The notes: a model not told the origin generated them from the letters alone. DNA of 64,000 nt from Cyanobacteria bacterium P01_F01_bin.150 (GCA_039189765.1 JBCCYL010000005.1:64001-128000), one strand, 5' to 3'. Counted from the first letter of the stretch, positions 22,387-63,565 are shown. Made by a program: numbers and translations.

Positions 22387-22430
22387 GGTACATTTAATTT
22401 CACGTCGTTACGCTAATGTATCCTATAAGA
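22387..22430. repeat. Degenerate REP palindrome
   Basis: GGTACATT..CACGTCGTTACGCTAATGTATCCTA aligns to the REP at 30993-31033. Confidence 0.6.
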
Positions 22431-22439
22431 GTCGATTCG

Positions 22440-22802
22440 CTATGATTCTCGAGAGCTAAAATGTCTTTGAGTTTCTCTCTCTTGACTAAAAGCATCTAAA
22501 AGATTAAATAAGATATCTAATGATATTTTCGTCGATTCATCGCAAGCTTCGCTGTCTTCCTCCAGATCAACTTCATAAATTTCTAGCTGAGAATCATAAT
22601 TAGACAAATCTGTTACTAGTTTTTTTATTTTGCCTGCAATCAAATCATGATCATTCTCATAAATAATAAACTCTGCAATAGGAGCATCTGAAGCCAGTGC
22701 TTTTCTAATATCACTCAGACTTTTTTCTGTATATTTCTTTATCAATATGAAGCTCTGATTATAGTTAGAGCTATTATTCAAATATAAGATTATTTTTGAC
22801 AT
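22440..22802 (-). CDS. Putative immunity protein for the upstream Tox-GHH nuclease
   Basis: AT-rich acidic 120-aa ORF with GAGG RBS, 21 bp downstream of the toxin stop. Confidence 0.65.
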   Translation of the reverse strand: MSKIILYLNNSSNYNQSFILIKKYTEKSLSDIRKALASDAPIAEFIIYENDHDLIAGKIKKLVTDLSNYDSQLEIYEVDLEEDSEACDESTKISLDILFNLLDAFSQERETQRHFSSRES

Positions 22803-22823
22803 TATTAATCTCCTCTCTTAAGT

Positions 22824-25800
22824 TTAAAACTCTTCTTCGAAGTCTGGATCAAGTGGAGAACCATGAGTTGAGTTTTGATAATCACCTCCATGCCAACGCT
22901 TCAAATGTTCATTTCTAGTTGTCGGGTAAATATAATCTGGATTATCGGCTAATTGAGGATAACTGAGCGCACTATATTTATGATGCCCTTCTATAGAAAT
23001 ATCATCAAATTTCGGTGTTTTTCCAGCAAGAATAGCTTCTTGCTGTTCTAAAGACCAGTTTCTTGTACCTGATTCACCTGTCTTTAAATTTCTTCTTTCT
23101 TTGGACCAAAATCTACTTACGCCTCTTGCTCTTCTGTTACCAAAACGACGATCCCAATCTAAATGATCCCATTCTTCCTTTGATAAAGTTCTATCACTTA
23201 ACTTTTGTTCTAGCTCTTGTTTTTGTGATGATGTTAAGGGCGAAAATGGTGTCCTGTAGCTAGGCATATCTTCCTCTTTTCGTGAAGAACCTATCCCCTT
23301 TTTCTCCATATCTTCACTAACAATTCTAGCCCGTTCCTGAGGACTAGAAGCTTTATCGATATCTTCTCTCTTATCATCAGTTAAATCAGCAGCTTTACAT
23401 ACTGAACAAACGTAAGTGTCACCATCGTCAGTGACCTTTACTTTATGACCACCGGGTAATTCTTCCTCCGCAACTTTGTCTCGTTCAACGTCTGCATTAT
23501 CGCGTTTTTGTTGAGTGCTATCAGAGGATTCCAGGGAGTCTTCAGAATCGGTGTCTGGGCTTTCTTTTTTATTACGTTTGTCGCGGATGCCTTTGGCCAT
23601 GCCCTTGAGTTTTCCAGCGATCGCCTTCCCTGCCGCCTTCAACTTACCGATGACCCATTGGGCAATGAAATTGAGGACAATAATTGCAGCAGAGGCAATC
23701 AAGCCAGCAAAAAGCGGTGCTGCGCTCCCCATCTTCACCGCTTGCAGGAAGCTGACAAACATAGTGAACGCTACCAAAACCTGACTTACAGTGCCCCAAG
23801 CCGCCATCAAGCTTTGGACAATGGTAATCACCGCTCCCACGGCTGGATTCAGCATCGAGATTAATTTCTCAATCAAGACTCCGAGGAGAATACCGGGAAT
23901 GGCCGCCACCAAGTTATCCCAAACCATGCCCCCGATCGCGCTCCAACTAAAGCCTCCCTGTTCCAAATCATCCACCTGTTCGGGGGCTAATCCCGTAATT
24001 TGCTGCACCTTGCCATCAAACCATCCCTGCGTCTGGCTTTGCATCTTGGGCCACAGCACATCTTCTTGGACGCCTCCTTGGACGCCAGAGCCAAAGTTGC
24101 TGATCCACTGACCGGGATTCGCTGCAATATCGGGAATAATCGCTTGCAATGCCCCGAACGCTTGAGCGGCACTTTGGGCCGTTTGTAAAATACCGCTGAT
24201 GGTACCACTAAGGCCGCTGACCACTGCATTTAAGCCCTGATTTAATAGCCCAAGGGCTGCATCTAAACCTTGTCCCAAAAGGTCGAGAGATTTTTGGATA
24301 CCCGTTTTCAGCCCCTCGGCCAGGGTATTGACGGTTTCCTCTGCTCGGTTGACCGCATCCTGAATAAAGCTACGATATCGATCACGAATTTGGGGGAATT
24401 TGGCCAGGAGGCGATCGCCCACCGCAATTAACGCATCCCCCACTCGCCGGATCACCCCAACAATCGCTTTTCGGCCTGCTTCAATGGCGGCAGTAGCCAG
24501 TTCTTTCGCTTTTTCGATCGCTGCTCGAATCGCCTTTCGGGCCGCATCAAAGGCCGCTTTAATCGCATTTTTAATTCCCTCAAAAAAGCCCTTGACCTTA
24601 TCCGCCATCCAGCCAAACACGCCACTGGATTCCTGCTGACCCTTGTGTTTTTCCGCTGCCGCTTGCTGCTCCCCTTTAATCCGCTCCTGCTCCGCCTGTT
24701 CTTCCCCTTTCTGAATTTCCTCAGACGCTTTGGATTCGGCGGTCCCCTTTTCAGTTTCAATCTCGGCCAACCCATCCGTAACCAATTGACTGGCTTCCGT
24801 TTGGGCAGAGGCTAATTCTGTATCCTGTTCCCCTTGCCAGTCCTGACGTAGGGTACTTACTTCAGCTTGAGCATTAGCTCGTTCGGTTTCCTGTTGTTGC
24901 AGGGTTTCCTGTTGGAGCTGAGCAATGTCTTGTTGCGATCTCGCCCGTTCATCCGCCACCGTTGCGGCATGGTCAGATTGCTGGGTTGCCATTTCTCCCT
25001 GAGCTTGGGCGATCGCGCCTTGAATCTCAGCCCCATGTTGCTCTTGGGCAATCACTGATGCCGCTTCTAAGCCAGCAGTACTTTGCTCAATGACAGCCGC
25101 AGCCCCACCTACAGCCCCACCACTAGTCCCCTGTAAGGTTTCCTGGGGCAACGTAGGATAAATGTCGCTCTCTCCCATTGACGCTAGGGCATCTTCCAGA
25201 CCTTTAGATTGAATATCAGCAGCACTGGCATTTAATTCAGCTTTCTGTTCTTGCGCCTTTTGTGGATCAGCATTCCCCGTGAGGTTCAGTTGAGGAGGAG
25301 ATCCAGCAGATGTAGAAGGTGCACCCATATCTTGAGTCGGCAACTGATTCACCGATGACGCAATCTGTTGAGCATCACCGCCAGATAGAGTGCCATCTTC
25401 ACTGCCTTGGACGTGGGGTGTCGGAATGGCAACTGGAGGCGCAGGCGCTACAGGTGGCGTAGGGGCTGGTTTCTCAACTGGAACTTCTGTCCCTTCTGGC
25501 GCGGGTGTTACTGATGTCGGAGTATCCGCAGTTGGAGCAGTCGCAGCCTTACTCCCCTCTTTTCCATTCGGTGTTTGAGCTGTTGGTGGATTTGCCGTTA
25601 AGGTCTCCTGCTCTTGGGTAACGCTATGGGCGATTGCCTGGGAAACCCCCCCCAACGCTGATTTCAACTGAGCGGGGGGCAGTGAGCTTACTCCGGCTAA
25701 GGCACTGGTGGGGTCTGATTTAGACACATCAGGAATCGCTGGAGTGGGTGGTGTTTGAACCGCAGCCCCACCGCCACCACCGCCACCGCCACCGCTTGGC

Positions 25801-27935
25801 CCCAGCGGTGATTCAGTTAAAGCCGATCGAGCAATACTTTGTTCCGTGGGCGAAAGTAAAGGACCTTCAGTACTCCGCTGTTCTGCCGGAACGGCTGAGA
25901 GACGCTGCTGCATGGCGATCGCCTCAGCCCCCTCATCCACATTGCCCCCTTGCACTTCCGGCACGCCTCCACTAGGCATTGCCCCACCGCCGCCACTGCT
26001 GGATTGTTGGGGGGATGTTCCTCCTGACGATTGCTCAGATTGGGCCGATGATGGTGCTGATAGCCCGGTTACTTCACCAGCATTTAGCGTTTGGAGATTC
26101 GGATCACTTTGTTCTGGGGCATTTTGAAGATGAGCCTCTGGAGTAGCCTCTCCCGTTGCTGAGGAATCCTCTGGAGATAACAGATTTTGAGCAATATCTG
26201 GCACTGCCCCTTTAACGCGATCCAGTTTTTGCCGATCGGCTTCTCCTTTAACGCCTCCAGCAATCGTTTTTCCAGCCTCACCAAAGGTGCCACCCACACC
26301 ATGCTTTAATCCTTGGACTGTGGCTTGTTTCACCGCTTGTTTTTTCAGCCATGCTTTAGTCCCTTTTCCTTTCACTACTTTATCGGCTACTTTGTCCCCG
26401 ACCACTGCCGCCGGACCTTTCAAAATACTCTTAGGGACGGGATGTTCAAATCCTTGGTGTACTTTATCTAAGGATTTACCCACGTTGCCAACTTTTTGGC
26501 CGACCACTTTACTGCCTTGGGCGATCGCCTTATTTCCGCCGCCTAAGACTTTCCCTGCTTTCGGAATCACCTTGCTTGCTGCCTTGGCCCCTTTCCCTGC
26601 TAGGCCAACGGCATCACCAAAACCAGGAATCGCCGCAACACTTGATAGAGCTGCATTGCCCCAGTCCCCTTCTGCTGCGTACAAACCGGCATTGGCAAGG
26701 TCGGCGATCGCTCCCACCCCAGGAATAAAACCAGCCACATCTAAAGCTGTATGGGTTTCGTCTCGATATTTATCAAAAAAGCCAGACTCTTTATCTGTTT
26801 CCTGTTCTTGTTGCCGCGCCTGAATGGCTTCATCCTTCTGACATTTTGAGCATAGTCGCTGCACCTCATTGACTGGTGCTAAGGCCTGTCGCGATTTAGG
26901 CTGAATCTTTCCACCCGTCTGCTGAATCGTATGGGTCAGCTCATGGGCCAACAATTCCTTACCGCCACTCGACCCCGGATTATACTTCCCAGAATTAAAA
27001 TAAATATCCTGCCCATGGGTAAACGCCTGCGCCCCGATCGCCCCTGCCTCTTTCGGTGCCTCATGGATCCGCACGCCGCTAAAATCCGCCCCAAAGCGCG
27101 GTTCCATAAACGATCGCGTCTTATCCGATAGCGGACTGCCCCCACCCCGATGTTTACCTAAATCCGTCTCAAAATTATCGGGAGCCGCCAGCGGTTCTGC
27201 CCGCATCTGAATTAATGGCTTGGTGTGAACGGGTTCCTCATCTTCCACCTGAGACGGCTGGGAAAATGCCTGTATCCGAATTAGGGGTTCTCGTTGAATC
27301 GGTTCATCTTCTTCCTGCTGTCGCTGTAGCCCTGGCTTTGGAATTAGGCCATAGGGATCGGGGACAAACGAGTCAGGCATCGCCATCACCTGGGCGGCAG
27401 TACGATTCTCCTTTGGAGACGCTGCGCGAACGGCTTCCTGCTCATACTTATCTCCTGGTCGGCCAATGGTGAGCTTGGGCTGAATTCTGTGCTTTAGCTC
27501 GTCTTTTTCCTCCTGGACTCGTTGGGCAATCTCCTGCTGCCGCATTAACACCCCGATATTTAATTTGGGCTGAATCGGAGTTTCATCCTCGTCCCCATTC
27601 GTTGCCCGAGAAATGCCAGGAGTCCCTGTTTCGTCATCGTCTTCCCCCCCATCGCTGGCCGATTGGCGCTGAAGCAACACATTAGATTCCGGTTCGGCCT
27701 CTTCTGTTTGTCGCTGTAATGCTTGCCGTTGTACTGTTTTGCTAAAGCTATGGCCAAACTGGAGCGCATGGGCTATTTGTGCCTCTGCACTGGGATAGCC
27801 AGATTCAGACTGGTCACTATCCATCTCCCAATCTGATGTTGATTTTTGATGGGTTCCATAGCGCTGTAGCGGCTTATTACCTGGAGCCGACACATGGGGA
27901 GACGATTTGCCGTTGACGGGGGGATGGTGACTCAT
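22824..27935 (-). CDS. DUF4157 (eCIS core) polymorphic toxin with PT-TG motif and C-terminal Tox-GHH (HNH-like) nuclease
   Basis: MEPRFGADFSGVRIH..AFTHGQDIYF..LLAHELTHTIQQ; LDVAGFIPGVGAIAD..GDW; C-terminal FW.KE..GTRNWS.EQ..EGHH..YPQLADNP..EH..WHGG. Confidence 0.88.
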   Translation of the reverse strand: MSHHPPVNGKSSPHVSAPGNKPLQRYGTHQKSTSDWEMDSDQSESGYPSAEAQIAHALQFGHSFSKTVQRQALQRQTEEAEPESNVLLQRQSASDGGEDDDETGTPGISRATNGDEDETPIQPKLNIGVLMRQQEIAQRVQEEKDELKHRIQPKLTIGRPGDKYEQEAVRAASPKENRTAAQVMAMPDSFVPDPYGLIPKPGLQRQQEEDEPIQREPLIRIQAFSQPSQVEDEEPVHTKPLIQMRAEPLAAPDNFETDLGKHRGGGSPLSDKTRSFMEPRFGADFSGVRIHEAPKEAGAIGAQAFTHGQDIYFNSGKYNPGSSGGKELLAHELTHTIQQTGGKIQPKSRQALAPVNEVQRLCSKCQKDEAIQARQQEQETDKESGFFDKYRDETHTALDVAGFIPGVGAIADLANAGLYAAEGDWGNAALSSVAAIPGFGDAVGLAGKGAKAASKVIPKAGKVLGGGNKAIAQGSKVVGQKVGNVGKSLDKVHQGFEHPVPKSILKGPAAVVGDKVADKVVKGKGTKAWLKKQAVKQATVQGLKHGVGGTFGEAGKTIAGGVKGEADRQKLDRVKGAVPDIAQNLLSPEDSSATGEATPEAHLQNAPEQSDPNLQTLNAGEVTGLSAPSSAQSEQSSGGTSPQQSSSGGGGAMPSGGVPEVQGGNVDEGAEAIAMQQRLSAVPAEQRSTEGPLLSPTEQSIARSALTESPLGPSGGGGGGGGGAAVQTPPTPAIPDVSKSDPTSALAGVSSLPPAQLKSALGGVSQAIAHSVTQEQETLTANPPTAQTPNGKEGSKAATAPTADTPTSVTPAPEGTEVPVEKPAPTPPVAPAPPVAIPTPHVQGSEDGTLSGGDAQQIASSVNQLPTQDMGAPSTSAGSPPQLNLTGNADPQKAQEQKAELNASAADIQSKGLEDALASMGESDIYPTLPQETLQGTSGGAVGGAAAVIEQSTAGLEAASVIAQEQHGAEIQGAIAQAQGEMATQQSDHAATVADERARSQQDIAQLQQETLQQQETERANAQAEVSTLRQDWQGEQDTELASAQTEASQLVTDGLAEIETEKGTAESKASEEIQKGEEQAEQERIKGEQQAAAEKHKGQQESSGVFGWMADKVKGFFEGIKNAIKAAFDAARKAIRAAIEKAKELATAAIEAGRKAIVGVIRRVGDALIAVGDRLLAKFPQIRDRYRSFIQDAVNRAEETVNTLAEGLKTGIQKSLDLLGQGLDAALGLLNQGLNAVVSGLSGTISGILQTAQSAAQAFGALQAIIPDIAANPGQWISNFGSGVQGGVQEDVLWPKMQSQTQGWFDGKVQQITGLAPEQVDDLEQGGFSWSAIGGMVWDNLVAAIPGILLGVLIEKLISMLNPAVGAVITIVQSLMAAWGTVSQVLVAFTMFVSFLQAVKMGSAAPLFAGLIASAAIIVLNFIAQWVIGKLKAAGKAIAGKLKGMAKGIRDKRNKKESPDTDSEDSLESSDSTQQKRDNADVERDKVAEEELPGGHKVKVTDDGDTYVCSVCKAADLTDDKREDIDKASSPQERARIVSEDMEKKGIGSSRKEEDMPSYRTPFSPLTSSQKQELEQKLSDRTLSKEEWDHLDWDRRFGNRRARGVSRFWSKERRNLKTGESGTRNWSLEQQEAILAGKTPKFDDISIEGHHKYSALSYPQLADNPDYIYPTTRNEHLKRWHGGDYQNSTHGSPLDPDFEEEF

Positions 27936-28103: not shown

Positions 28104-28706
28104 ATGGCCTACAGTCAGTTCAAAACCCTGACCAGCGTTAAGGAAGCCTTTGGGATTACCACCCAGGAAGGCATCCGGTTTTTGCCAGATTTAGAGCCAA
28201 TTCAGCCATCTACAACGCTCCACAGTTTTTTTGGCTACAGTCTACCCGTTGCGGTTGCAACAGGCAGCGAAAAAGCGCGATCGGAGTTAATTATTAGCCC
28301 CGTCCTGCTAGAAGTGCGTCAGATTTTGCAACAGCGCATTAGCTTCTTTTCGGGGGAAGACTTTACGGTGGATGATTCAGTGGGGCTAAACGGCACCTGT
28401 GACTTCCTGCTGAGTCGTTCCACTGAACTGATTGAAATTGAAGCTCCGGTCTTTATTTTGGTGGAGGCCAAAAAGGCAGATTTGAAATCTGGGCTGGGCC
28501 AATGCGCTGCTGAAATGATTGCCGCTCAGCGCTTTAACCAGGTGAGGGGCCAAGATATTACCACCATTTACGGGTGTGTCAGCAGTGGTACCCAGTGGCG
28601 CTTTATGCAATTGGAAGAGCAGCAGTTGACTATCGATCTATATGATTATCCGCTGCCGCCCGTGGGGCAAATTTTAGCGTTTTTGGCGTGGATGGCAGAG
28701 CACTAA
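28104..28706 (+). CDS. Cyanobacterial PD-(D/E)XK restriction-endonuclease-like protein
   Basis: EKARSE, GTCDF..VEAKK..GLGQCAAEMIAAQRFN, YGCVSSGTQW. Confidence 0.82.
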   Translation: MAYSQFKTLTSVKEAFGITTQEGIRFLPDLEPIQPSTTLHSFFGYSLPVAVATGSEKARSELIISPVLLEVRQILQQRISFFSGEDFTVDDSVGLNGTCDFLLSRSTELIEIEAPVFILVEAKKADLKSGLGQCAAEMIAAQRFNQVRGQDITTIYGCVSSGTQWRFMQLEEQQLTIDLYDYPLPPVGQILAFLAWMAEH

Positions 28707-28734
28707 CCTTGAATAAGGCGATCGCCTTCCGCAA

Positions 28735-28799
28735 AGATCCCAGGGTTCTGGCCAAATCTTTTGGTTTAATCAAGAAACTCGCATAGAACCCTGGGATCT
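28735..28799. repeat. AGATCCCAGGGTTCT..AGAACCCTGGGATCT palindromic element
   Basis: Perfect 15-bp inverted arms between convergent genes; also at 39865, 50582 and, as one arm, 62949. Confidence 0.8.
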
Positions 28800-28821
28800 G
28801 GCGACGGACATATCGCCTAAT

Positions 28822-29094
28822 CTACGGCACTTGGCTACCAGCTAACGATTTAAGCCCAACGATGCGTTTGGTCAAAATGCGCATCACTTCGCTTGTCGAG
28901 TTGGGGGCGGGCAAGGGCTGTGACCACTCATGGGGTTCGGCATAACCAAGCTGATACATCTTGATAATGTGCTGGTTGACCACGGCTGGAGCACCGATGG
29001 CAATCACCCGCAGGATTTCAGCTTCTCCATGGTCTGGAACATCAGGATGCACAAAGTTGCCGAGCCGTTGGGCTTGGTTAATGGATGTCGTCAT
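28822..29094 (-). CDS. Small conserved hypothetical protein (IGxP..GYAEPHEWSQPLP..EVMRIL), copy A
   Basis: CAGGAG RBS before ATG 29094; near-identical paralogue at 62548-62817; alternative in-frame ATG at 29190. Confidence 0.75.
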   Translation of the reverse strand: MTTSINQAQRLGNFVHPDVPDHGEAEILRVIAIGAPAVVNQHIIKMYQLGYAEPHEWSQPLPAPNSTSEVMRILTKRIVGLKSLAGSQVP

Positions 29095-29294
29095 TAGAAC
29101 ACTCCTGTTTTGTTGTTGTAGGAGCACCCAAAGGACACGCCATCCCAAAAATATTGCAGAACAATATGGGATGGCGTTCAGGAGTGTCATAATACCTGAT
29201 AGCCAATCCGTCTGCTCGTACAGATGGGTTGGTTAGTCCTCTAGCTGTGTGTCAGCACATCTAGGGGACGCTTTTCGCGTTTTTGGGCGCTTGA
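29095..29294 (-). ncRNA. Putative structured RNA leader, copy A
   Basis: Three hairpins plus ACACTCCTG/CAGGAGTGT pairing over the RBS; several differences from copy B fall in predicted loops. Confidence 0.5.
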
Positions 29295-29300
29295 CAGCAG

Positions 29301-29329
29301 AGCATATCAGAAGCAAGGACAAGAAACAA
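29301..29329 (-). promoter_or_regulatory. Putative sigma-70 promoter TTGTTT-17 bp-TATGCT (extended -10)
   Basis: Both hexamers and spacing conserved in copy B while spacer bases vary. Confidence 0.45.
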
Positions 29330-29454
29330 CCGTATGCTCCAAAGCGATAAAAAGACGCTTAACGATTGGAAATACTCCGGGCCGCACGATGATTTTACCG
29401 TCGAGGATGATATTGATATTCTAGTTGAGCGCAACAGCCTAAGAGAGTATACAA

Positions 29455-30267: not shown

Positions 30268-30310
30268 GGTGCATTACGCTTCACTTCGTTACGCTAATGT
30301 ATCTTATGCG
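30268..30310. repeat. REP palindrome upstream of RAYT
   Basis: GGTGCATTACGCTTCACTTCGTTACGCTAATGTATCTTA matches the REP consensus. Confidence 0.7.
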
Positions 30311-55050: not shown

Positions 55051-55132
55051 GTGGGGTGTATTAGCGTAATAACGTGAAGCGTAATGCAACCATTCATAAT
55101 CTGGACGCTGAATCGGTGGGTGACGCGATCGC
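55051..55132. repeat. Degenerate REP doublet between vgrG and PAAR
   Basis: GTGGGGTGTATTAGCGTAATAACGTGAAGCGTAATGCAACC..AATCGGTGGGTGACGCGATCGC. Confidence 0.7.
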
Positions 55133-55192
55133 AAATTTATTCAATTAGTGTGATAAGTCTAAAACGGTTTACTAAACGGGAAAAGACAAATT

Positions 55193-56504: not shown

Positions 56505-56677
56505 GGTTCAGCCATTCATTCCATAAATGTATGCCTTTTCTGGTGGTCCTTTAGAGTGCCATTGCGTGTCTTGCCTCTACTATCCTCAAAAAGTGTTGTA
56601 ACGTTTGCTGTTCTTTGCTAACTCCATCACCGAGAATCAAAGTATTTGCTAAATCTCTTAATGTAAGGTGCGATGTT

Positions 56678-58774
56678 ATGGGTCGTGAGTCCTCTCCCCG
56701 CAGCAGAGTTGCGAATCCTTTTACGGGTGGTCAAAAGGATAGTTTTGGCCAGTCGTTTGGGTCGCGGAGGTCTGGACAACGTCCGAATTTTGGGGAAGAA
56801 GAGACCGATGCAGGGGCTGCGGCTAATACTGTGATGTCGATGGAGAGGGCGATCGCGCTTCAGGCCCATTTTATGGAAGCGTCGGGGCTGGGGGCTGTGA
56901 TTCAACGGCAAACGGAAGGGGAAGAGGAAGAACTTCAGCGACAGCCGGAGGAAGAGGAAACGCTCTCTCCCAAACTCAATGTTGCCCAACTGCAACGGCA
57001 GTATGACGAGCAGCAACAGGCTATGCTACAGCGCCAGCCGGAGGAAGAAGAGGAAACGCTCTCTCCCAAACTCAATGTTGCTCAACTGCAACGGCAGTAT
57101 GACGAGCAGCAACAGGCTATGCTACAGCGCCAGCCGGAGGAAGAGGAAGAGCTGCGGACTCGCCTATCGGTTCAACCGAAACTCACCATTGGCCAACCGG
57201 GGGATAAGTATGAGCAAGAGGCCGATCGCACGGCAGCGAAGGTGATGGCGATGCCGGATTCGATCGTTCAGGCGTTTGGGGGTTCGGGGGTTCAAGAGTT
57301 TGGGGATTCAGAGGTTAGCAAGCAAGGTGAACCCCAGTTCCAGCGTCGAATCAATGTAACTGCATCGATTCAGCGAAACCCAACCGAAGACGAAGAGCTA
57401 GCCCAACCAAAACTCCATAACTCCATAACTCCCCAACTCCATAACTCCATAACTCCCCAACTCCATAACCCCATAACTCCCCAACTCCATAACTCCCCAA
57501 CTCTCCAAGCCAAAGGGCAAGCGCCTACAGCACCTGAGAACTTCGAAACCCAACTCGCCCAACACAAAGGCAGCGGTCAACCGCTATCGGACGAGGCGCG
57601 ATCGTTTATGGAACCTCGTTTTGGGACTGACTTTAGCAATGTGCGGGTGCATGAAACGCCTGATTTAGCTAACTCGATTCAGGCCCAAGCGTTTACCCAC
57701 GGGCAGGATATTTATTTTAATTCAGGGAAATATAATCCGGGGTCAAGTGGTGGAAAAGAATTGTTGGCACATGAGTTGACTCACGTGGTGCAGCAAAAAG
57801 AGGCTGCTACAGTCATATCTCTACAACGAGAGGTAAAATCTCAAGCAAATGCACCAGTAGATCGAGTTATTATTCTATGTGACAAATGGAACGTACGTGA
57901 ACAGCCTTCACGTTCTGCATCAAAACTTGGAACCTTAAAGTACGGTGAAAAGGTTCCTCTCAAAGGGAAAAAGACGGAAAATTGGCTAGAGATTGAATAT
58001 TTAGGAAAGACTGGCTTTATTTATAAAAAATCTTGGATAAAAATTCAACGGAATGATGATCCTCAAACAGATCCCGCTGCTCTTGGTTATGTTGGACTCA
58101 ACCCAGAAGCCCATAAGGAAGCCGATGCACTTGAAAGTAGTTCAAAAGATACAGTAAATATTTCTCTAGATGAACCAACAGAACATGAAAATTATGATGC
58201 TTTAGACAAGCAGGAAAAGTTTGTCGTATCCCAATTAGGCGTTACCCCAAAACACCCTAAATTTCAGACTATCCTGAATTGTATAGAAAAATGCGATCCG
58301 GGTTTTCGAGAGCAAATGGCTGATCTGTTAATGATGTTTCGTAGTGCAGAATTAGGAAAATATAGCCTTGAGCGGCTAGTCTTTTCTGGGCATCACTATG
58401 ATGAGGGTGATTCTCATGCAGCTCAAAATGGCGTAGATACTTTAGCTGTGTGGGGAGAAGAGTTTTCGTCCGGTCAAATGAAGTCTAGTAAAGATTTAAA
58501 GAATTTAGTTACGGCTTTTCCGAAAGCTGCAGCTCAAGTCAAGGATATTATGTTTTCAGCTTGTAATTCAACAAAGCAAGTTGATCTTTGCAAACAATTT
58601 TTTCCTAATCTCAAGACCGTTTGGGCTTATAAGGGGAGTTCACCAAGTGTTAAGCAAGGTTCTTCAAGACACGTTGAACGTTGGAATAGCAGGACTGAAG
58701 GGGATAATATGCCAACCAAACGAGACAGAAAAGGTAAGATTGCGATATGGATAAAAGGCAGAGGCTTTATTTAG
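56678..58774 (+). CDS. DUF4157 effector with bacterial SH3 domain and putative caspase-fold cysteine protease C-terminus
   Basis: QRQ repeats, DUF4157 HELTH, SH3b-like NVRE.PS..LG.L..GEKV..WLEIEY.GKTGFI, then LVFSGHH..IMFSACNS. Confidence 0.82.
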   Translation: MGRESSPRSRVANPFTGGQKDSFGQSFGSRRSGQRPNFGEEETDAGAAANTVMSMERAIALQAHFMEASGLGAVIQRQTEGEEEELQRQPEEEETLSPKLNVAQLQRQYDEQQQAMLQRQPEEEEETLSPKLNVAQLQRQYDEQQQAMLQRQPEEEEELRTRLSVQPKLTIGQPGDKYEQEADRTAAKVMAMPDSIVQAFGGSGVQEFGDSEVSKQGEPQFQRRINVTASIQRNPTEDEELAQPKLHNSITPQLHNSITPQLHNPITPQLHNSPTLQAKGQAPTAPENFETQLAQHKGSGQPLSDEARSFMEPRFGTDFSNVRVHETPDLANSIQAQAFTHGQDIYFNSGKYNPGSSGGKELLAHELTHVVQQKEAATVISLQREVKSQANAPVDRVIILCDKWNVREQPSRSASKLGTLKYGEKVPLKGKKTENWLEIEYLGKTGFIYKKSWIKIQRNDDPQTDPAALGYVGLNPEAHKEADALESSSKDTVNISLDEPTEHENYDALDKQEKFVVSQLGVTPKHPKFQTILNCIEKCDPGFREQMADLLMMFRSAELGKYSLERLVFSGHHYDEGDSHAAQNGVDTLAVWGEEFSSGQMKSSKDLKNLVTAFPKAAAQVKDIMFSACNSTKQVDLCKQFFPNLKTVWAYKGSSPSVKQGSSRHVERWNSRTEGDNMPTKRDRKGKIAIWIKGRGFI
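57411..57506. repeat. 8-bp tandem repeat AACTCC(AT/CC), about 11-12 units, inside the effector gene
   Basis: Translated KLHNSITPQLHNSITPQLHNPITPQLHNSP. Confidence 0.9.
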
Positions 58775-58775
58775 C

Positions 58776-59134
58776 GCGATCGCCCTCGCGTAGTAGCATG
58801 ACACATCTAAAATAAGGCATTAGAAAGCTGATATATCTTTTGCTTTCAAAGCCTTGAGCCTGAATCCTAATGCCCTATTTTCGCAGTGCCACGGTAAGTA
58901 GTAGCGTGACAACTCTAAAATGGTGCATTACGCTGTCGCTAATGGCACCCTACGCGATCGCATGCTGCATATGGCATAGGATGTGTTAGGCGATAGCCGT
59001 AACGCATCGAGATAATGCATAAATTTAGTCGTGTCATTCTAGTAGTATGCATTAGCATAACGAAATGGAACGTAATGTACTTTAATTCTCTGGGTATAAG
59101 GACGGTGGATTACGCTATCGCTAATCCACCCTAA
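58776..59134. mobile_element. REP doublet interrupted by two MITE-like inverted-repeat elements
   Basis: CGCGTAG at 58787 resumes as TAGTATGCATTAGCATAACG near 59043; inserts at about 58794-58898 and 58902-59042 have imperfect terminal inverted repeats; the second contains REP-like palindromes. Confidence 0.55.
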
Positions 59135-59390: not shown

Positions 59391-61103
59391 TTATTTACCT
59401 ATGATTTTACTCTTTAAATCAGTGCATTTCTTATTATTTTTGAAGAAAATACCTAATCGAGTTGAAGATGGTAGTCTTTTAAGTTGATTATGAACGGCAT
59501 CCAACTTACATTCAATAATTTGAGGTAAAAATAGTTCATAATCTTCATGCTTTATATCATCTTGAAAGATATTAATACTACCTTGATTGATATCATGAAA
59601 AACAAGATGGGTGAGAAAAAAATTACCATGAATAGTTATCTTATTCACTAATTTAGATTCATTACTTCTGTCCTGTAGATGCTTCTTCACACTTCTATAG
59701 ACTTCAATACTGCGCCACAAATTTAGAGGGGATACTCCAGCGTTAAAAATTCTTTTGTAGAGTGAAGAAGACGTATCGGCCCAAAATTCAGAAACGTCTT
59801 TTTTGAGAATTACGACTAAATTCAAATCATCATTATTACAGACTAATGCTTCTGTAGCTTCTAATAACGTGCAAGAATTTTCACTACTAATCATTTCATC
59901 TGATCGCTTGTAGAAATAGGTCTTATTTCTATCCCATGTTTTTAGCTCTCTAGCTAATTTTCGTTGAATTGGATCCAATGCTAGGAAGTCCCGATTTTCA
60001 ACATGATTTTGAGTATTGGAAGCTTTAGTAATATCAAGACCAAAATTTTCAGGACAGTCTTCTAAAGATATTAGCTTTATTAATACTTCAGTTTGTTCAA
60101 GGTTTTCTCGTGCTTCATCTGTCCCCTCCCTGTAGTATCGCCCAATACTGCCAATTGTTTGGGCTCCATTAATGATACTAAGTCCTTTGCACGTAAAATC
60201 GTCATTAAGTCTCTTCACGCCTTTTGTTTTTCTCCGAATTTCCTGACATAAAGCTGTGATACCATTATTGAAATACCAAAATGATGTTGGGTCCTCTTTC
60301 AGAGTTCGGGTAATATCATCATTTGCTTTAGTTTGTCCTATAAACTCTCTAAGGTTCTGAGAAAATAAGTTATTGCGGTGCTTGATCCATAACTCTGCTA
60401 ATTCTAGAGCAGAAATAGAACCATAAAAAGCTGTAGGGTCATCCATTTTTCCCCAATTCGATAAGTTTATATTAGCCTCTATATTCAGCTTGTTTGCATT
60501 TTCTACAGCCGTTTTATAGGCTATATCCTTATCAAACAACTGATATGAAAAAATTTCATCATCTTCGTTAGTATTTAAGTCTCCTACCAAATCCTCTAAG
60601 CACTTTCGACTTGTTTTGGTTAAACCCTGCCCCGTATGAGTAATAACGATGTTTACTTTTACTCCAAATGTTGACAAGGCACACTCTGTTTCCTCTTTTT
60701 TTTGGCAAAGCCGAGAATTAGGTCTGTCTAGATTATCTTCAATTAAATTTCTAACTCCTGTAGCAAAATTATTAATGTCTTTATATTCAGGCTGACCAGT
60801 CCCTTTCTTGATCCATTTAGATTGAATAAACCAAAGAACATTATCGTTTTTGTGCCAAAAGATTGCATCTATTCCATTGTCCCCTTGGCCATCAACGATG
60901 GATTCAGCGGCTTCATTTGCTCCAATACCTGCTAAAGCATACAAAGTATAAGCGGCAAACCCACGACTTAAGAATGCAGTAGCTTTATCAACGCGTGAGC
61001 CTTCTAAATCTGTTAAATCAATTAAGTCTTCTCCAAAAAGCCGCTTAATTTCTCCCTGAAGTTGTTTTACTGCAAACTTTTGGGTATCGTTACTTGGAGC
61101 CAT
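59391..61103 (-). CDS. AIPR family protein (abortive infection phage resistance)
   Basis: DGQGDNGIDA..FIQSKW, LFSQNLREFIG, FWYFNNGIT, IINGAQT, SNTQN.V..RDF; start ATG 61103 or TTG 61124. Confidence 0.92.
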   Translation of the reverse strand: MAPSNDTQKFAVKQLQGEIKRLFGEDLIDLTDLEGSRVDKATAFLSRGFAAYTLYALAGIGANEAAESIVDGQGDNGIDAIFWHKNDNVLWFIQSKWIKKGTGQPEYKDINNFATGVRNLIEDNLDRPNSRLCQKKEETECALSTFGVKVNIVITHTGQGLTKTSRKCLEDLVGDLNTNEDDEIFSYQLFDKDIAYKTAVENANKLNIEANINLSNWGKMDDPTAFYGSISALELAELWIKHRNNLFSQNLREFIGQTKANDDITRTLKEDPTSFWYFNNGITALCQEIRRKTKGVKRLNDDFTCKGLSIINGAQTIGSIGRYYREGTDEARENLEQTEVLIKLISLEDCPENFGLDITKASNTQNHVENRDFLALDPIQRKLARELKTWDRNKTYFYKRSDEMISSENSCTLLEATEALVCNNDDLNLVVILKKDVSEFWADTSSSLYKRIFNAGVSPLNLWRSIEVYRSVKKHLQDRSNESKLVNKITIHGNFFLTHLVFHDINQGSINIFQDDIKHEDYELFLPQIIECKLDAVHNQLKRLPSSTRLGIFFKNNKKCTDLKSKIIGK

Positions 61104-61258
61104 GTAACTAAAAATCTCATTCAAACTGTATCATCATTATTTCTAGCATATATTTCTCTGAATAATGATGATGTAATCCTGCTTAATTCTAGAAAGATAT
61201 GGAAATAGGGTTTGACGACAAAGCTCTGGGTTTCTACGCATAGCTATCGTCTTGCTTA

Positions 61259-61545
61259 GATCGCCCTCGCGTAGGGAGTATTAGCGTAACGAAGTGGAGC
61301 GCAATGCACCATTATTTCTCGGGATGTGGGATCGGGGGATTACGCGATCGCCAATCCACCCTACGTGATTGGTTTTCTCTTGTGGCGATCGCATCCCGCA
61401 AACGCGATCGCACCATTCTGGATTTTGGAGCGCGATCAATTTGGGCAGAGTTGTAAAGGAGCGATTTCCTTTCGGTAAGGCTAACGCCAACGCTTTGGGT
61501 GGGGAAGGGCGATCGCATTGAGTGAAGTGGAAAAGGGGCGATCGC
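61259..61545 (+). repeat. ~290-bp direct repeat copy 1 (REP doublet plus HIP1-rich tail)
   Basis: Near-identical to 63274-63565 except the spacer between the REP pair. Confidence 0.9.
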
Positions 61546-61759
61546 CCTGGATACTATAAGCAGCAATACGTGCAGAGCAAAAGCAATCCAAGGCTATTGA
61601 TAAGTCCCTTTGTCAAAGACATGGCTTTAGCCAAAGGCCATAGTAGGGAAAGGAAGGCAAAACGAAGGGGAAGGGCGATCGCAGCGACGAGAAACCAAGA
61701 CAATATATGGGATCAGGGGAAGAAATATATGTTGTCTAGATGATAATCCAAAGATCATG

Positions 61760-62230: not shown

Positions 62231-62311
62231 TGGCAGCAAATAGTTGTTATACCCACAAGTTTAGCTTATTGCGATCGCGTAGGACGCATTAGCGAAACAA
62301 AGAGCATACGG

Positions 62312-62340
62312 TTGTTTCTTGCCCCTGCTTCTGCTATGCT
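62312..62340 (+). promoter_or_regulatory. Putative sigma-70 promoter TTGTTT-17 bp-TATGCT
   Basis: TG at the extended -10 position; conserved in both copies. Confidence 0.45.
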
Positions 62341-62346
62341 CTGCTG

Positions 62347-62547
62347 TCAAGCGCTCAAAAACGCGAAAAGCGTCCCCTAGATGTGCTAGAGACACAGCTA
62401 GAGGACTAACCACCCCATCTGAGAAAGCAGACGGACTGGCTATCAGGTATTATGACACTCCTGAACGCCATCCCATATTGTTCTGCAATATTTTTGGGAT
62501 GGCGTGTCCTTTGGGTGCTCCTAAAACAACAAAACAGGAGTGTTCTA
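62347..62547 (+). ncRNA. Putative structured RNA leader, copy B
   Basis: Hairpins at 62372-62406, 62410-62439 and 62466-62504; 62455-62463 pairs with 62535-62543 over the RBS. Confidence 0.5.
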
Positions 62548-62817
62548 ATGACGACATCCATTAACCAAGCCCAGCGGCTCGGCGACTTTGTGCAGCCCAA
62601 TGTCCCAGACCATGGAGAAGCTGAAATCCTGCGTGTGATTGCTATCGGTTCCCCCCCCGTGGTCAACCAGCACATCATCAAGATGTATCAGCTTGGTTAT
62701 GCTGAACCCCATGAGTGGTCACAGCCCTTGCCTGCCCCCAGCTCGACAACCGAAGTGATGCGCATTCTGACCAAACGCATCGTTGGGCTTAAATCGTTAG
62801 CCAGTAACCCAGTATAA
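62548..62817 (+). CDS. Small conserved hypothetical protein, copy B
   Basis: CAGGAG RBS; paralogue of 28822-29094 with many synonymous differences. Confidence 0.75.
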   Translation: MTTSINQAQRLGDFVQPNVPDHGEAEILRVIAIGSPPVVNQHIIKMYQLGYAEPHEWSQPLPAPSSTTEVMRILTKRIVGLKSLASNPV

Positions 62818-62827
62818 GTTCTGCGTT

Positions 62828-62891
62828 GGGTCAGGAGACCTGACCCCTACCGTGGCTAAATACCCTGTAGGGGCGCGGTCTCCGCGCCTAA
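62828..62891. repeat. Second GTAG-type REP pair
   Basis: GGGTCAGG-AGA-CCTGACCCCTAC and GTAGGGGCGCGG-TCT-CCGCGCC hairpins. Confidence 0.6.
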
Positions 62892-62991
62892 TGCAGAGCG
62901 GTTAGCAATCGGCATTGTTCACCGAAACTGCATGAATCAATGGATGCCAGAACCCTGGGATCTTTGCAAAGGGCGATCGCCTTTTTCAAGG

Positions 62992-63270
62992 TTAGTGCTC
63001 TGCCATCCATGCTAAAAACGCTAAAATTTGGCCAACGGGCGGCAGCGGATAATCAAATAGATCGATAGTCAACTGCTGCTCTTCCAATTGCATAAAGCGC
63101 CACTGGGTGCCATTGCTGACACAACCGTAAATGGTGGTAATATCTTGGCCCTTCACCTGGTTAAAGCGCTGAGCAGCAATCATTTCAGCAGCGCATTGGC
63201 CCAGCCCAGCCTTCAAATCTGCCTTTTTGGCCTCCACCAAAATAAAGACCGGAGCTTCGATTTCAATCAG
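62992..63270 (-). pseudogene. 5'-truncated copy of the 28104-28706 PD-(D/E)XK gene
   Basis: LIEIEAPVFILVEAKK..WMAEH* is nearly identical; homology ends abruptly at the HIP1/REP at 63271. Confidence 0.85.
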
Positions 63271-63273
63271 CGC

Positions 63274-63565
63274 GATCGCCCTCGCGTAGGGTGCATTAGC
63301 GTAACGCAGTGGAGCGTAATGCACCTTAATTAAAATTACCTGGGCCTGGAATCGGTGGATTACGCGATCGCCAATCCACCCTACGTGATTGGTTTTCTCT
63401 TGTGGCGATCGCATCCCGCAAACGCGATCGCACCATTTTGGATTTTGGAGCGCGATCAATTTGGGCAGAGTTGTAAAGGGGCGATTTCCTTTCAGGAAGG
63501 CTAACGCCAACGCTTTGGGTGGAGAAGGTCGATCGCATTGAGTGAAGTGGAAAAGGCGCGATCGC
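63274..63565 (+). repeat. ~290-bp direct repeat copy 2 (REP doublet plus HIP1-rich tail)
   Basis: Near-identical to 61259-61545. Confidence 0.9.

What the first reader, a model, noticed from the sequence alone, without database searches (positions are those of the whole stretch)
22387..63565. RAYT transposase whose REPs mark cassette junctions and rearrangement breakpoints across a toxin/eCIS island
Seen: an intact RAYT (30380-30931) and related REP singlets or doublets at about 22387, 30268, 30938, 32937, 36933, 44154, 55051, 58787-59134, 61268, 62278 and 63284. Many lie right after the variable AT-rich effector or immunity ends (22440, 33048, 37033, 58774). All three long duplications involve them: the 170-bp and 290-bp direct repeats contain REP doublets, and 62302-63270 abuts a REP at each end, truncating a gene at the HIP1/REP. 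Known: RAYTs are HUH enzymes that cleave and rejoin ssDNA at REPs; their cellular role is unresolved. Inference: REPs act as recombination sites for capture, duplication and shuffling of toxin, immunity and defence cassettes, an integron-like role. Caveat: REPs favour intergenic 3' ends anyway.
Basis: partly seen in the sequence, partly recalled or inferred. Interest (0 to 1): 0.8.

Follow-up and report, generated by a model that had tools for sequence, protein, structure and literature searches.

The report
REP transposase lodged in toxin-injection island
A cyanobacterial gene island for a phage-tail-like toxin injector carries the genome's only intact REP transposase and is crowded with its short palindromic repeats, some of which bracket duplicated or swapped gene cassettes, but the evidence favours ordinary repeat-driven recombination over an integron-like capture machine.

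Summary
ORF 30380-30931 is an intact REP-associated tyrosine transposase (RAYT), the only full-length copy in the 10.6-Mb genome. Its GTAG-tagged palindromes (REPs, often paired as REPINs) number about 155 genome-wide, and 17 lie between 22.4 and 63.4 kb of the window, about 20 times the genome density. All three long duplications contain or abut REPs. REP-bearing local direct repeats occur nowhere else in the genome.

The integron-like reading is only partly supported.
- REPs also sit in spacers of the conserved injection-system operon where gene order matches a relative.
- Six other eCIS or effector loci in the same genome hold 0-1 REPs each; a seventh, on C1, has 2 nearby.
- One junction lies in a REP loop, which suggests palindrome breakage rather than transposase cleavage.
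- The Tox-PL-2/partner cassette is followed by REPs no more often than its neighbours are.

New here: RAYT homologues lie beside eCIS effector genes in 5 of 160 fetched loci and 2 of 72 RAYTs in a class sample, against fewer than 0.4 and about 0.1 expected. One of these genomes (G049) repeats the pattern of RAYT fragments, REP-bearing repeats and a REP-bracketed Tox-PL-2 pair.

Best reading: a RAYT with its flanking REPs lodged in eCIS cargo DNA, seeding REPs locally, which then act as passive recombination substrates.

The parts
30380..30931 (+). Intact RAYT (REP-associated tyrosine transposase), 183 aa
   Evidence: NF047646 at 189.3 bits against cut-off 80. Y1_Tnp. HUH and Tyr invariant. Only full-length copy in the genome.
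30268..30303 (-). Long-loop REP upstream of the RAYT
   Evidence: nhmmer E 1.1e-8; sequence seen.
30939..31032 (.). REPIN (short REP in + orientation, long-loop REP in - orientation) 8 nt after the RAYT stop
   Evidence: Folds as one long DNA hairpin, -25.7 kcal/mol, z -6.5.
30858..31044 (+). Direct repeat copy 1: last ~75 nt of the RAYT gene plus the REPIN
   Evidence: megablast 94.1% over 188 nt to 32856-33043; alignment.
31451..32800 (-). Ankyrin-repeat gene, the cassette between the two repeat copies
   Evidence: Pfam Ank families; PADLOC PDC-M72A 3.2e-25.
32856..33043 (+). Direct repeat copy 2: RAYT 3' remnant (about 32860-32931) plus REPIN 32938-33031, 17 nt after the stop of effector B
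22401..22425 (-). Degenerate REP 15 nt after the stop of the 120-aa gene downstream of effector A
   Evidence: nhmmer E 0.0013; 73% to the reference copy.
22824..27935 (-). eCIS effector A (eCIS_core plus Tox-GHH nuclease toxin domain)
   Evidence: Pfam.
28428..29339 (+). Source copy of the inverted duplication: 3' part of a PD-(D/E)xK gene plus a 122-aa gene. No REP at either end.
   Evidence: blastn; PADLOC PD_DExK 2.6e-51.
33048..35842 (-). eCIS effector B, split into two overlapping frames
36984..37022 (-). Long-loop REP between convergent genes 36093-36947 and 37033-37527
   Evidence: nhmmer E 2.3e-9.
37807..55693 (.). eCIS structural core: AAA ATPase, Pvc16 cap, sheath, tubes, VgrG spike, PAAR. 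Syntenic with G011:C71.
   Evidence: Pfam; tblastn synteny.
44155..44373 (.). Four REPs in the tube1|tube2 spacer: two tandem short REPs in + orientation (44155-44185, 44208-44237) and two variant REPs in - orientation (44286-44314, 44345-44373)
   Evidence: The spacer is 295 nt here against 20 nt in G011.
55054..55088 (+). REP in the VgrG|PAAR spacer
   Evidence: nhmmer E 4.1e-7. The spacer is 150 nt here against 17 nt in G011.
56615..58774 (+). eCIS effector C (eCIS_core plus SH3)
   Evidence: Pfam.
58776..59133 (.). REP cluster: a REP 5'-flank remnant, REPs at 58922-58953 (-), 59044-59080 (+) and 59104-59133 (-), and a ~160-nt palindromic composite element at 58898-59056
59391..61124 (-). 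AIPR / AbiU-like gene, a cassette bounded by REPs
   Evidence: Pfam AIPR; PADLOC AbiU 3.9e-33.
61259..61742 (+). REPIN plus flank, copy A (REPs 61271-61310 and 61334-61364, then ~380 nt)
62273..62296 (+). Half REP (GTAG, left arm, start of loop), cut 5 nt before the inverted duplicate begins
   Evidence: sequence; family D10.
62302..63270 (-). Inverted duplicate of 28428-29339; its copy of the PD-(D/E)xK gene lacks the first 324 nt
   Evidence: blastn 93.2% and 94.8%.
63274..63566 (+). REPIN plus flank, copy B (REPs 63286-63325 and 63354-63384). Homology to copies A and C ends at a HIP1 site.
63718..64000 (+). Tox-PL-2 gene. It runs to 64083 beyond the window and is followed by its 120-aa partner (64129-64491) and repeat copy C (64518-64939, REP 64531-64559).

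Best explanation
The stretch is the cargo (effector/immunity/defence) part of a cyanobacterial extracellular contractile injection system (eCIS) locus. A RAYT with its flanking REPs (a 'REPtron') has lodged in it.

The RAYT is a single-copy HUH/Y1 enzyme. It propagates its cognate GTAG-tagged palindromes, and new copies land mainly in nearby spacers that follow stop codons. Half of such spacers in a ~42-kb zone now hold at least one REP, whether the flanking genes are conserved structural genes or variable cassettes.

Once dense, the 100-400-nt REPIN-bearing segments act as dispersed homologous repeats and as fragile palindromes. Ordinary homologous or illegitimate recombination between them, and breakage at hairpins, produced the three duplications, the truncated nuclease gene, the half REP and the REPIN-bracketed cassettes.

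REPs therefore contribute to cassette turnover, but as passive substrates rather than as integron-like att sites.

Shown: RAYT identity, the REP family, the density, the duplications and their ends, and the recurrence of RAYTs beside eCIS effectors. Inferred: local (cis) seeding by the RAYT, and recombination or breakage as the cause of the rearrangements.
For: RAYT identity and uniqueness.

REP/REPIN anatomy and folding.

Density: 17 of 155 REPs in the window. 10 of 26 intergenic regions occupied, against 96 of 5018 elsewhere. All 19 REPs of the 167-kb contig lie within -37 to +34 kb of the RAYT.

The same local crowding occurs around RAYTs elsewhere:
- G036: 6 of 25 exact REPs within 40 kb of its RAYT.
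- G049: 4 of 4 within 6 kb.
- G038: 2 of 2 flank the RAYT.
- G144: 2 of 4 sites lie in the RAYT locus.
- Passages read in PMC3116915 report REPIN clusters adjacent to each RAYT of P. fluorescens SBW25, and REPINs repeated in tandem with their flanking sequence.

REPs follow the RAYT, not toxins. Six other eCIS or effector loci in the same genome hold 0-1 REPs each, and a seventh on C1 has 2 nearby.

REPs are plain insertions in operon spacers where gene order is conserved. This includes gp25|Baseplate_J at C5:57077.

Genome-wide preference for 3' ends: outside the island there are 32 convergent and 71 unidirectional placements against 12 divergent. This matches passages read in PMC3733652.

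One junction falls in a REP loop. The source copy of the inverted duplicate has no REPs. Neither fits hairpin-foot cleavage.

The Tox-PL-2 partner gene is not followed by REPs more often than its neighbours (8 of 59 against 91 of 788).
Against: Distance from the RAYT alone does not explain the pattern.
- In the bins C5:60-90 kb, 9 of the 10 intergenic regions of at least 50 nt are empty; the only occupied one is at 86.3 kb. This REP-free stretch lies 8-34 kb from the RAYT. By my arithmetic P is about 0.01 at 38% occupancy.
- The distal cluster at 58.8-64.6 kb is as dense as the RAYT's own flanks.

The REP-rich zone coincides with eCIS and cargo DNA, including the displaced baseplate module.

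REP-bearing local direct repeats are unique to this island (4 of 207). Duplication end points are enriched near REPs (20 of 3182 against 3.8 expected).

RAYTs sit beside eCIS effectors far more often than chance. The passive model explains this only by calling cargo regions a sink for mobile DNA, and that was not tested.

Local REPINs are not each other's closest relatives. The 30.9-kb REPIN is 85-87% identical to the REPINs at 61 and 63 kb but 90-92% identical to a copy on C143. The cluster is therefore not one recent local burst.
Confidence: 0.5

Rival explanations
1. The RAYT cuts and rejoins single-stranded DNA at REPs that bracket toxin, immunity and defence cassettes. Cassettes would then be captured, duplicated and shuffled in an integron-like way, with the REPIN playing the part of attC.
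For: Cassettes bracketed by directly repeated REPIN-bearing segments: Ank; XisI plus inverted duplicate; Tox-PL-2 plus partner. AIPR lies between two REPINs.

These are the only REP-bearing local direct repeats in the genome. A half REP lies at a junction.

G049 independently shows two RAYT fragments in 402-nt direct repeats, REP-bearing repeats, and a homologous Tox-PL-2 pair (48% and 61% identity) between REPs next to a RAYT and an eCIS effector.

RAYTs lie beside eCIS_core effectors in 5 of 160 fetched loci and in 2 of 72 RAYTs of a class sample. Expected numbers are at most 0.34 and about 0.1, by my arithmetic. L316 and L312 add two more RAYTs next to the Tox-PL-2 pair.
Against: - The source copy of the inverted duplication has no REPs at its ends.
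- One junction lies in the loop, not at the hairpin foot.
- The left end of the 188-nt repeat lies inside the RAYT coding sequence.
- REPs also occupy conserved operon spacers.
- Variable against conserved junction occupancy is not significant (p = 0.175).
- In L144 and L224, REPs flank only the RAYT, not the effectors.
- The Tox-PL-2 partner is followed by REPs no more often than its neighbours.
- Repeat copies are 5-9% diverged, so there is no sign of current activity.
- Closer RAYT homologues (G003, G038, G008, G024) and G036 sit among ordinary genes.
Confidence: 0.12
2. History rather than activity. The eCIS island, its RAYT and most of its REPs arrived or evolved together, for example by horizontal transfer from a REP-rich donor or replicon. 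The REP-free blocks now beside it were brought in later by inversion or insertion. On this view the density is inherited, not produced in place.
For: The REP-rich zone has sharp borders at 22.4 and 64.6 kb. It includes the displaced baseplate module at C5:57 kb, while the block in between holds no REP in 9 of the 10 intergenic regions of bins C5:60-90 kb (the one occupied is at 86.3 kb).

The syntenic eCIS loci of G011 and G007 have no homologue of this RAYT. The same-genus genome G003 carries a 68% RAYT with a different REP in a different context.

REP copies in the zone are diverged (85-95%). The short REP motif is shared across phyla.
Against: 136 further REPs of the same family are spread over about 100 contigs, so the family is well established genome-wide. 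HIP1 sites are as frequent in the island as expected for a resident cyanobacterial sequence (sequence). No donor with a matching long-loop REP was found: there was 1 match outside this genome. A density of 17 REPs per 41 kb would be extreme even for REP-rich genomes; this comparison is recalled, not tested.
Confidence: 0.2
3. Nothing special. REPs simply prefer spacers after gene 3' ends, and a gene-dense accessory region with many short genes offers many such spacers.
For: REPs genome-wide favour unidirectional and convergent spacers. In the island they lie 8-17 nt after stop codons of all kinds of genes.
Against: Per-spacer occupancy is 10 of 26 here against 96 of 5018 elsewhere. Other accessory stretches on the same contig (TPS/CHAT block, window 1-22 kb) and most other eCIS loci have none.
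Confidence: 0.03

Closest known systems
REPIN-RAYT systems of Pseudomonas fluorescens SBW25 (Bertels and Rainey 2011, PMC3116915; passages read)
   Same: A single-copy RAYT flanked by its own REPINs. REP doublets fold as long hairpins. There are higher-order REPIN clusters adjacent to each RAYT, and REPINs are repeated together with flanking sequence.
   Different: The population here is small (about 155 copies against about 1400). Enrichment extends over ~42 kb rather than a few hundred bp. The repeats are interleaved with unrelated gene cassettes. The host is a cyanobacterium and the site is an eCIS cargo region.
GTAG-tagged REP families, including cyanobacterial GTAG-15/16 (Di Nocera et al. 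2013, PMC3733652; abstract and passages read)
   Same: A GTAG tetranucleotide sits at the 5' foot of a GC-rich hairpin. Loops are bounded by GCG. Most copies lie within about 20 nt of the 3' ends of ORFs. RAYT genes are flanked by GTAG repeats. Large clusters include flanking DNA. Some families are shared by many species.
   Different: Assignment to one of their numbered families was not tested. They do not report a link to injection-system or toxin loci in the passages read.
E. coli REP/BIME with TnpA-REP (YafM); work of Ton-Hoang et al. 2012 and Messing et al. 2012 (recalled, not read here)
   Same: An HUH/Y1 enzyme that binds, cleaves and rejoins REP single strands and needs the GTAG tag. 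REPs are known join points of tandem duplications in Salmonella (Shyamala et al. 1990, recalled).
   Different: No biochemistry exists for this cyanobacterial enzyme. The E. coli RAYT is not linked to a toxin island, as far as I recall.
Integrons (IntI tyrosine recombinase with attI and attC sites)
   Same: Imperfect palindromes that fold as single strands lie between promoterless-looking cassettes. The array sits next to the gene of the enzyme that acts on them.
   Different: No integrase family match was found in the island ORFs scanned. Cassette orientation is mixed. Repeat ends do not coincide with a defined crossover point. REPs also lie inside a conserved operon. The enzyme is an HUH nuclease, not a tyrosine recombinase.
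IS200/IS605 family insertion sequences
   Same: Y1 HUH transposase fold. Subterminal hairpins are recognised on single-stranded DNA.
   Different: The IS200 equivalog model scores 26.5 bits against a cut-off of 55. There is one copy only, and no IS ends enclose the gene.
Orphan toxin-immunity arrays of polymorphic toxin loci (CDI, Rhs); recalled
   Same: A short Tox-PL-2 plus partner pair with no delivery domain lies downstream of full-length effectors, amid mobile-element debris.
   Different: The delivery system is an eCIS with eCIS_core (DUF4157) effectors. The debris is REPs and RAYT fragments rather than IS or integrase fragments.

Membership tests
RAYT (REP-associated tyrosine transposase) | Matches the curated family model above its cut-off over full length | tested here: met
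   NF047646 at 189.3 bits against 80, profile positions 1-146 of 146.
RAYT (REP-associated tyrosine transposase) | HUH motif and catalytic tyrosine present | tested here: met
   D59-H60-x-H62 and Y133 are invariant in 8 aligned homologues.
RAYT (REP-associated tyrosine transposase) | Single or low copy per genome, unlike an IS | tested here: met
   One full-length copy; the other matches are fragments or lie below the cut-off.
RAYT (REP-associated tyrosine transposase) | Gene flanked by the genome's cognate REPs | tested here: met
   A REP 77 nt upstream and a REPIN 8 nt downstream.
RAYT (REP-associated tyrosine transposase) | Cleaves and rejoins REP single strands | not testable with these tools
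   Needs biochemistry.
REP / REPIN | Short GC-rich hairpin with a conserved GTAG at its 5' foot, in many dispersed copies | tested here: met
   155 loci at E<=0.01 on about 100 contigs. Single REPs fold with z -4.2 to -5.8.
REP / REPIN | Doublets of two inverted REPs that fold into one long hairpin | tested here: met
   30935-31036 folds at -25.7 kcal/mol, z -6.5. 61267-61368 is weaker, z -2.1.
REP / REPIN | Extragenic, biased to 3' ends of genes | tested here: met
   Outside the island: 71 unidirectional, 32 convergent and 12 divergent placements, plus 15 inside crude ORFs. Background spacers: 3110, 948 and 1162.
Integron | IntI-type tyrosine recombinase gene next to the array | tested here: not met
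   No integrase family among 59 ORFs scanned against Pfam.
Integron | Cassettes in one orientation, each ending in an attC-like site that travels with the cassette | tested here: not met
   Orientations are mixed. The Tox-PL-2 partner gene is followed by a GTAG hairpin in 8 of 59 genomes, against 91 of 788 neighbouring ORFs.
IS200/IS605 | TnpA matches the IS200 model; multiple copies bounded by IS ends | tested here: not met
   NF033573 at 26.5 bits against 55; single copy.
Extracellular contractile injection system (eCIS) | Sheath, tube, spike (VgrG/PAAR), Pvc16-type cap, Pvc15-type AAA ATPase, baseplate gp25/J/I, eCIS_core (DUF4157) effectors | tested here: met
   All are found. The baseplate genes lie 40 kb away in inverted orientation, and effector B is frame-broken, so function is uncertain.

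The most novel reading that the evidence does not exclude
A clade of RAYTs and their REPINs has been recruited repeatedly, in several cyanobacterial families and in Methylococcales, to the cargo regions of extracellular contractile injection systems. There, REPIN-bounded segments would be excised and re-inserted as single strands by the RAYT. This would give these toxin-delivery loci an HUH-enzyme-based cassette exchange system, analogous to but unrelated to integrons.
Probability: 0.12. Interest if true: 0.85.

Novelty: new member of a known kind. Interest (0 to 1): 0.52.

Why it matters
What RAYTs and REPs do for the cell is unresolved. This genome offers an unusually tractable case. It has a small REP population, one intact RAYT, and a 42-kb zone where half of the eligible spacers are occupied and where REPIN-bearing repeats bracket toxin, immunity and defence genes.

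RAYT homologues lie next to eCIS effector genes about 20-fold more often than chance in two data sets, and I found no paper that mentions this. The finding either identifies eCIS cargo regions as sinks for this kind of mobile DNA, or points to a role of REPs in effector turnover. Long-read population data and a simple in vitro assay could tell the two apart.

If only the passive reading holds, the result is a cyanobacterial example of known REP biology.

Tried and rejected
1. Orphan 'HIP1 + GTAG' tags as empty or excised REP sites. GATCGCGTAG occurs 55 times. The script's stem pattern counted 17 as followed by a REP stem. About 10 more are a GGTGCC variant that the pattern missed, which I judged by eye from the listed sequences. 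The rest is within the range of 7 control decamers (13-67). Dropped.

2. Strain-level comparison of indel end points. No close relative is available. The best DNA relatives are 70-78% identical, the best RAYT in metagenome contigs is 73%, and only one run holds the stretch, probably the source sample.

3. Junction variants or circles in reads. Only Logan contigs were available. Unitigs break at every REP, and the listed 'joints' have sides of 20-33 nt that fit other REP or repeat copies. No conclusion about variants can be drawn.

4. REP as an attC-like 3' end of the Tox-PL-2 cassette across genomes. Not supported. 59 of 62 loci were analysed; the 3 weakest (L348-L350, E at least 3e-4) were dropped before counting.

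5. REP at the eCIS inversion break point. The REP at C5:57077 lies between gp25 and Baseplate_J, inside the operon and not at the break.

6. A donor genome for the long-loop REP. One exact-pattern match outside this genome.

7. Simple distance decay from the RAYT. Rejected as a sufficient explanation because of the REP-free stretch in bins C5:60-90 kb.

8. Earlier notes of this scan. Nothing was on record for this place.

Full report
**What is there**

The window is G000:C5:64001-128000 of a 10.64-Mb, 350-contig, HIP1-rich cyanobacterial assembly.

Bases 22.8-58.8 kb hold an extracellular contractile injection system (eCIS):
- AAA ATPase, 37807-39996
- Pvc16-type cap, 40050-41354
- sheath, 41791-43518
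- three gp19-type tube genes and a CIS_tube gene
- VgrG, 53303-55042
- PAAR, 55193-55693
- three eCIS_core (DUF4157) effectors: A (22824-27935, with a Tox-GHH domain), B (33048-35842, in two overlapping frames) and C (56615-58774)

To the right lie:
- an AIPR/AbiU-like gene (59391-61124; PADLOC 3.9e-33)
- XisI
- a duplicated PD-(D/E)xK nuclease fragment
- a Tox-PL-2 gene with a 120-aa partner (63718-64491) and an IS, running beyond the window

**The transposase**

ORF 30380-30931 matches the NCBIfam equivalog for REP-associated tyrosine transposases at 189.3 bits (cut-off 80) over the whole profile. It matches the IS200 model only at 26.5 bits against 55.

The HUH motif and the tyrosine are invariant among 8 homologues.

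tblastn finds one full-length copy in the genome. The other matches are a 3' remnant at 32.8-32.9 kb and two diverged fragments on C180 and C103.

**The repeats**

The REP is a GTAG tag followed by a 9-bp stem, GGTG(C/G)ATTA. The loop is either about 9 nt (short form) or about 18 nt (long-loop form). HIP1 often precedes it.

Pairs of one short and one long REP in inverted orientation form REPINs. The REPIN after the RAYT folds as one long DNA hairpin at -25.7 kcal/mol, z -6.5.

Profiles were built from 33 short and 17 long seeds and run over the genome. They give 155 merged loci at E<=0.01: 17 in the window, all between 22.4 and 63.4 kb, and 19 on the contig. At E<=1e-4 the figures are 124 and 15. 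A plain regex census gave 13 of 103 hits in the window, many of the rest being chance.

No 64-kb window on another long contig has more than 5.

Per spacer, 10 of 26 intergenic regions of at least 50 nt in window 22-65 kb hold a REP, against 96 of 5018 in the rest of the genome.

**The duplications**

1. 30858-31044 and 32856-33043 are 94% identical. Each carries the last ~75 nt of the RAYT gene plus the REPIN. They bracket the ankyrin gene.

2. 61259-61545 and 63274-63565 are 91% identical. Each is a REPIN plus flank. A third copy lies beyond the window (64518-64939; 93% to 61329-61742). In that copy the long-loop hairpin is missing right after its GTAG. Together these copies bracket first XisI plus the inverted duplicate, and then the Tox-PL-2 pair.

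3. 62302-63270 is an inverted, 93-95% identical copy of 28428-29339. One end lies 5 nt from a half REP that stops in its loop (62273-62296). The other end lies 3 nt from the HIP1/REPIN at 63274. The nuclease gene copy has lost its first 324 nt.

The intact source copy has no REP at either end.

Genome-wide, 207 local direct-repeat alignments (120-800 nt, 0.1-6 kb apart) exist. Only the 4 in this island carry REPs in both copies.

Of 3182 duplication end points, 20 lie within 25 nt of a REP, against 3.8 expected. Twelve of those 20 are in the island. Outside it the count is 8 of 3122.

**Tests of the cassette-junction idea**

*Synteny.* G011:C71 keeps the order effector, AAA, Pvc16, sheath and onward to VgrG and PAAR. 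Two REP sites in G000 lie inside this conserved order:
- tube1|tube2 spacer: 295 nt here against 20 nt in G011
- VgrG|PAAR spacer: 150 nt here against 17 nt in G011

A third REP lies between gp25 and Baseplate_J at C5:57077. These are plain insertions without any rearrangement.

*Junction type.* Among the 20 spacers that contain a 3' end, 8 of 13 variable junctions and 2 of 7 conserved junctions are occupied. The one-sided hypergeometric p is 0.175 (my arithmetic). None of the 6 divergent spacers is occupied.

*Other eCIS loci.* Six other eCIS or effector loci in the same genome (C13, C17, C25 with four effectors, C94, C115, C223) hold 0-1 REPs each. A seventh, on C1, has 2 nearby.

*3' end preference.* REPs across the genome favour 3' ends, as published for GTAG REPs (PMC3733652, passages read).

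**Does proximity to the RAYT explain the density?**

In favour:
- In the complete genome G036, 6 of 25 exact REPs lie within 40 kb of its RAYT.
- In G049, 4 of 4 lie within 6 kb.
- In G038, G024 and G006, REP pairs flank the RAYT.
- REPIN clusters beside RAYTs, and REPINs repeated with their flanks, are described for P. fluorescens (PMC3116915, passages read).

Against a pure distance effect:
- In the bins C5:60-90 kb, 9 of the 10 spacers are empty; the only occupied one is at 86.3 kb. This stretch lies 8-34 kb from the RAYT.
- The distal cluster at 58.8-64.6 kb is as dense as the RAYT flanks.

The REP-rich zone instead matches eCIS and cargo DNA.

**A recurrent link to eCIS cargo**

Closer homologues in G003, G038, G008 and G024, and the homologue in G036, sit among ordinary genes.

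Among 80 metagenome loci with RAYT homologues (32 of them at least 5 kb long), 3 carry eCIS_core effectors next to the RAYT:
- L129 (RAYT 69% identical)
- L144 (52%)
- L160 (50%)

Among 80 genome loci (73 at least 5 kb long), 2 do:
- L214, a Chroococcidiopsis MAG. The order is VgrG, effector, two toxin-antitoxin-type genes, REPs, RAYT, REP, gp25, Baseplate_J.
- L224, a Methylococcales MAG. The RAYT with its REPs sits amid three effectors.

L144 and L224 share REP sequence and architecture, so I count them as one lineage.

For a base rate, an evenly drawn class sample has 149 eCIS_core matches in 150 other genomes (my sum). That is about one per 5 Mb. The 1.70 Mb of flanks examined should therefore hold about 0.34. 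Five loci give a Poisson tail of about 3e-5, or about 0.005 if only three lineages are independent.

In the same class sample, I counted 72 RAYT matches over the cut-off in other genomes. Two of them lie within 3 kb of an eCIS_core match, in G049 and G144. About 0.1 is expected, giving P of about 0.007.

The locus in G144 reads RAYT, REP, AAA, effector, REP.

The locus in G049 holds:
- an effector
- an intact RAYT
- two RAYT fragments inside 402-nt direct repeats
- REP-bearing repeats
- a Tox-PL-2 pair between REPs

That pair is 48% and 61% identical to the pair in G000. L316 and L312 add RAYTs next to the same pair.

No paper in the searched library holds both 'REP-associated tyrosine transposase' and 'contractile injection system'. 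The eCIS papers listed show no occurrence of 'transposase'.

**A test of the attC analogy**

The 120-aa partner gene has relatives in 62 genome loci, of which 59 were analysed.
- 43 keep Tox-PL-2 upstream.
- 9 have eCIS_core within 10 kb, and 8 have the AAA ATPase.
- 8 have a GTAG hairpin within 300 nt downstream.

Among all 788 ORFs of the same loci, 91 have such a hairpin, 55 of them REP-like. There is no excess. The cassette does not travel with a REP.

**Reading**

The simplest account is this. A RAYT with its flanking REPs lodged in eCIS cargo DNA. REPs spread into nearby 3' spacers. The resulting repeats and palindromes then recombined or broke. That produced REPIN-bracketed cassettes, a truncated gene and a half REP.

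The junction in a REP loop and the REP-free source copy fit this account better than hairpin-foot cleavage does. I give it 0.5.

A history-based variant, in which the island and its REPs came together, gets 0.2.

The active model is kept alive by three things: the unique REPIN-bracketed cassettes, the parallel in G049, and the recurrent RAYT-eCIS link. The passive account explains the last of these only by an untested 'sink' assumption.

**Limits**

- Gene calls for the spacer statistics are crude longest-ORF calls.
- The REP profiles were seeded partly from window copies.
- Hairpin detection in other genomes used a simple rule, with a few per cent false positives by my estimate.
- The loci sets were chosen by similarity to this RAYT, so lineages are not independent.
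- The read data were contigs only.
- Supplementary files of the cited papers were not opened.

Noticed in passing
G000:C5:52972-57664 (6-11 kb left of the window) and window 55193-55693: The eCIS locus is split. gp25, Baseplate_J and Tail_P2_I lie 40 kb from the rest, in inverted orientation. In G011:C71 Baseplate_J and Tail_P2_I follow PAAR after a 507-nt gap, and in L214 gp25/J/I follow the cargo genes. One ~62-kb inversion would restore that order.
   Followed up: partly
window 33048-35842: Effector B reads in two overlapping frames (34772-35842 and 33048-34832). The break falls inside the eCIS_core domain. It is either a pseudogene or a sequencing error.
   Followed up: no
window 35014-35067, 38706-38775, 57403-57514; C5:57010-57070: Tandem 8-nt repeats lie inside coding DNA of effector B, the AAA ATPase and effector C, and upstream of Baseplate_J. 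The units are (TCCCCTGC)n and (AACTCCAT)n / (GGAGTTAT)n. A change in copy number would shift the frame.
   Followed up: no
window 59104-61366: The Logan unitig that carries the AbiU-like AIPR gene runs exactly from one REP to the next. Its depth is 22.8, against 35-42 for flanking unitigs, including one of similar GC (0.36 against 0.38). This may be a presence/absence polymorphism, but contigs cannot show it.
   Followed up: partly
window 58898-59056: A ~160-nt palindromic composite element with terminal inverted repeats encloses two different REP-type hairpins. Copies lie on C32, C63 and C7.
   Followed up: no
window 44958-45071: A 106-114-nt repeat sits in the tube2 downstream spacer, with 92-94% identical copies on C124 and C85. 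It is a second kind of small dispersed element in the operon.
   Followed up: no
window 28104-28706, 28822-29190, 61760-62098: The 200-aa PD-(D/E)xK protein (PADLOC 2.6e-51), the 122-aa protein and XisI each belong to a large paralogous family, with dozens of tblastn matches each across the genome (my rough count). Several copies have a REP within 500 nt.
   Followed up: partly
L009:3718-4491 (window 63718-64491): The Tox-PL-2 protein and its 120-aa partner form a pair that is widespread in cyanobacteria. The partner is 70-77% identical across many genera, which is unusually conserved for an immunity protein. About one locus in five has eCIS AAA or eCIS_core genes within 10 kb.
   Followed up: partly
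window 61545, 63565, 63274, 31044: Three of the four outer ends of the REPIN-bearing direct repeats fall at or in a HIP1 site (GCGATCGC). HIP1 is part of the usual REP 5' flank, so this may not be independent of the REP.
   Followed up: partly
window 323-10844: A two-partner secretion pair (ShlB-type transporter and a 2684-aa TPS exoprotein ending in a CHAT domain) and further CHAT/CHASE2 genes lie left of the island. This block is accessory DNA but holds no REP.
   Followed up: no
L042-L121 (other genomes): The short REP motif GTAGGGTGSATTAGCGNNAGCGTAATSCACC occurs exactly in Bradyrhizobium, Methylococcaceae, Porticoccus, Aquisalimonas, Microcystis, Crocosphaera, Nostoc and others. This is one REP type shared across phyla.
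   Followed up: no
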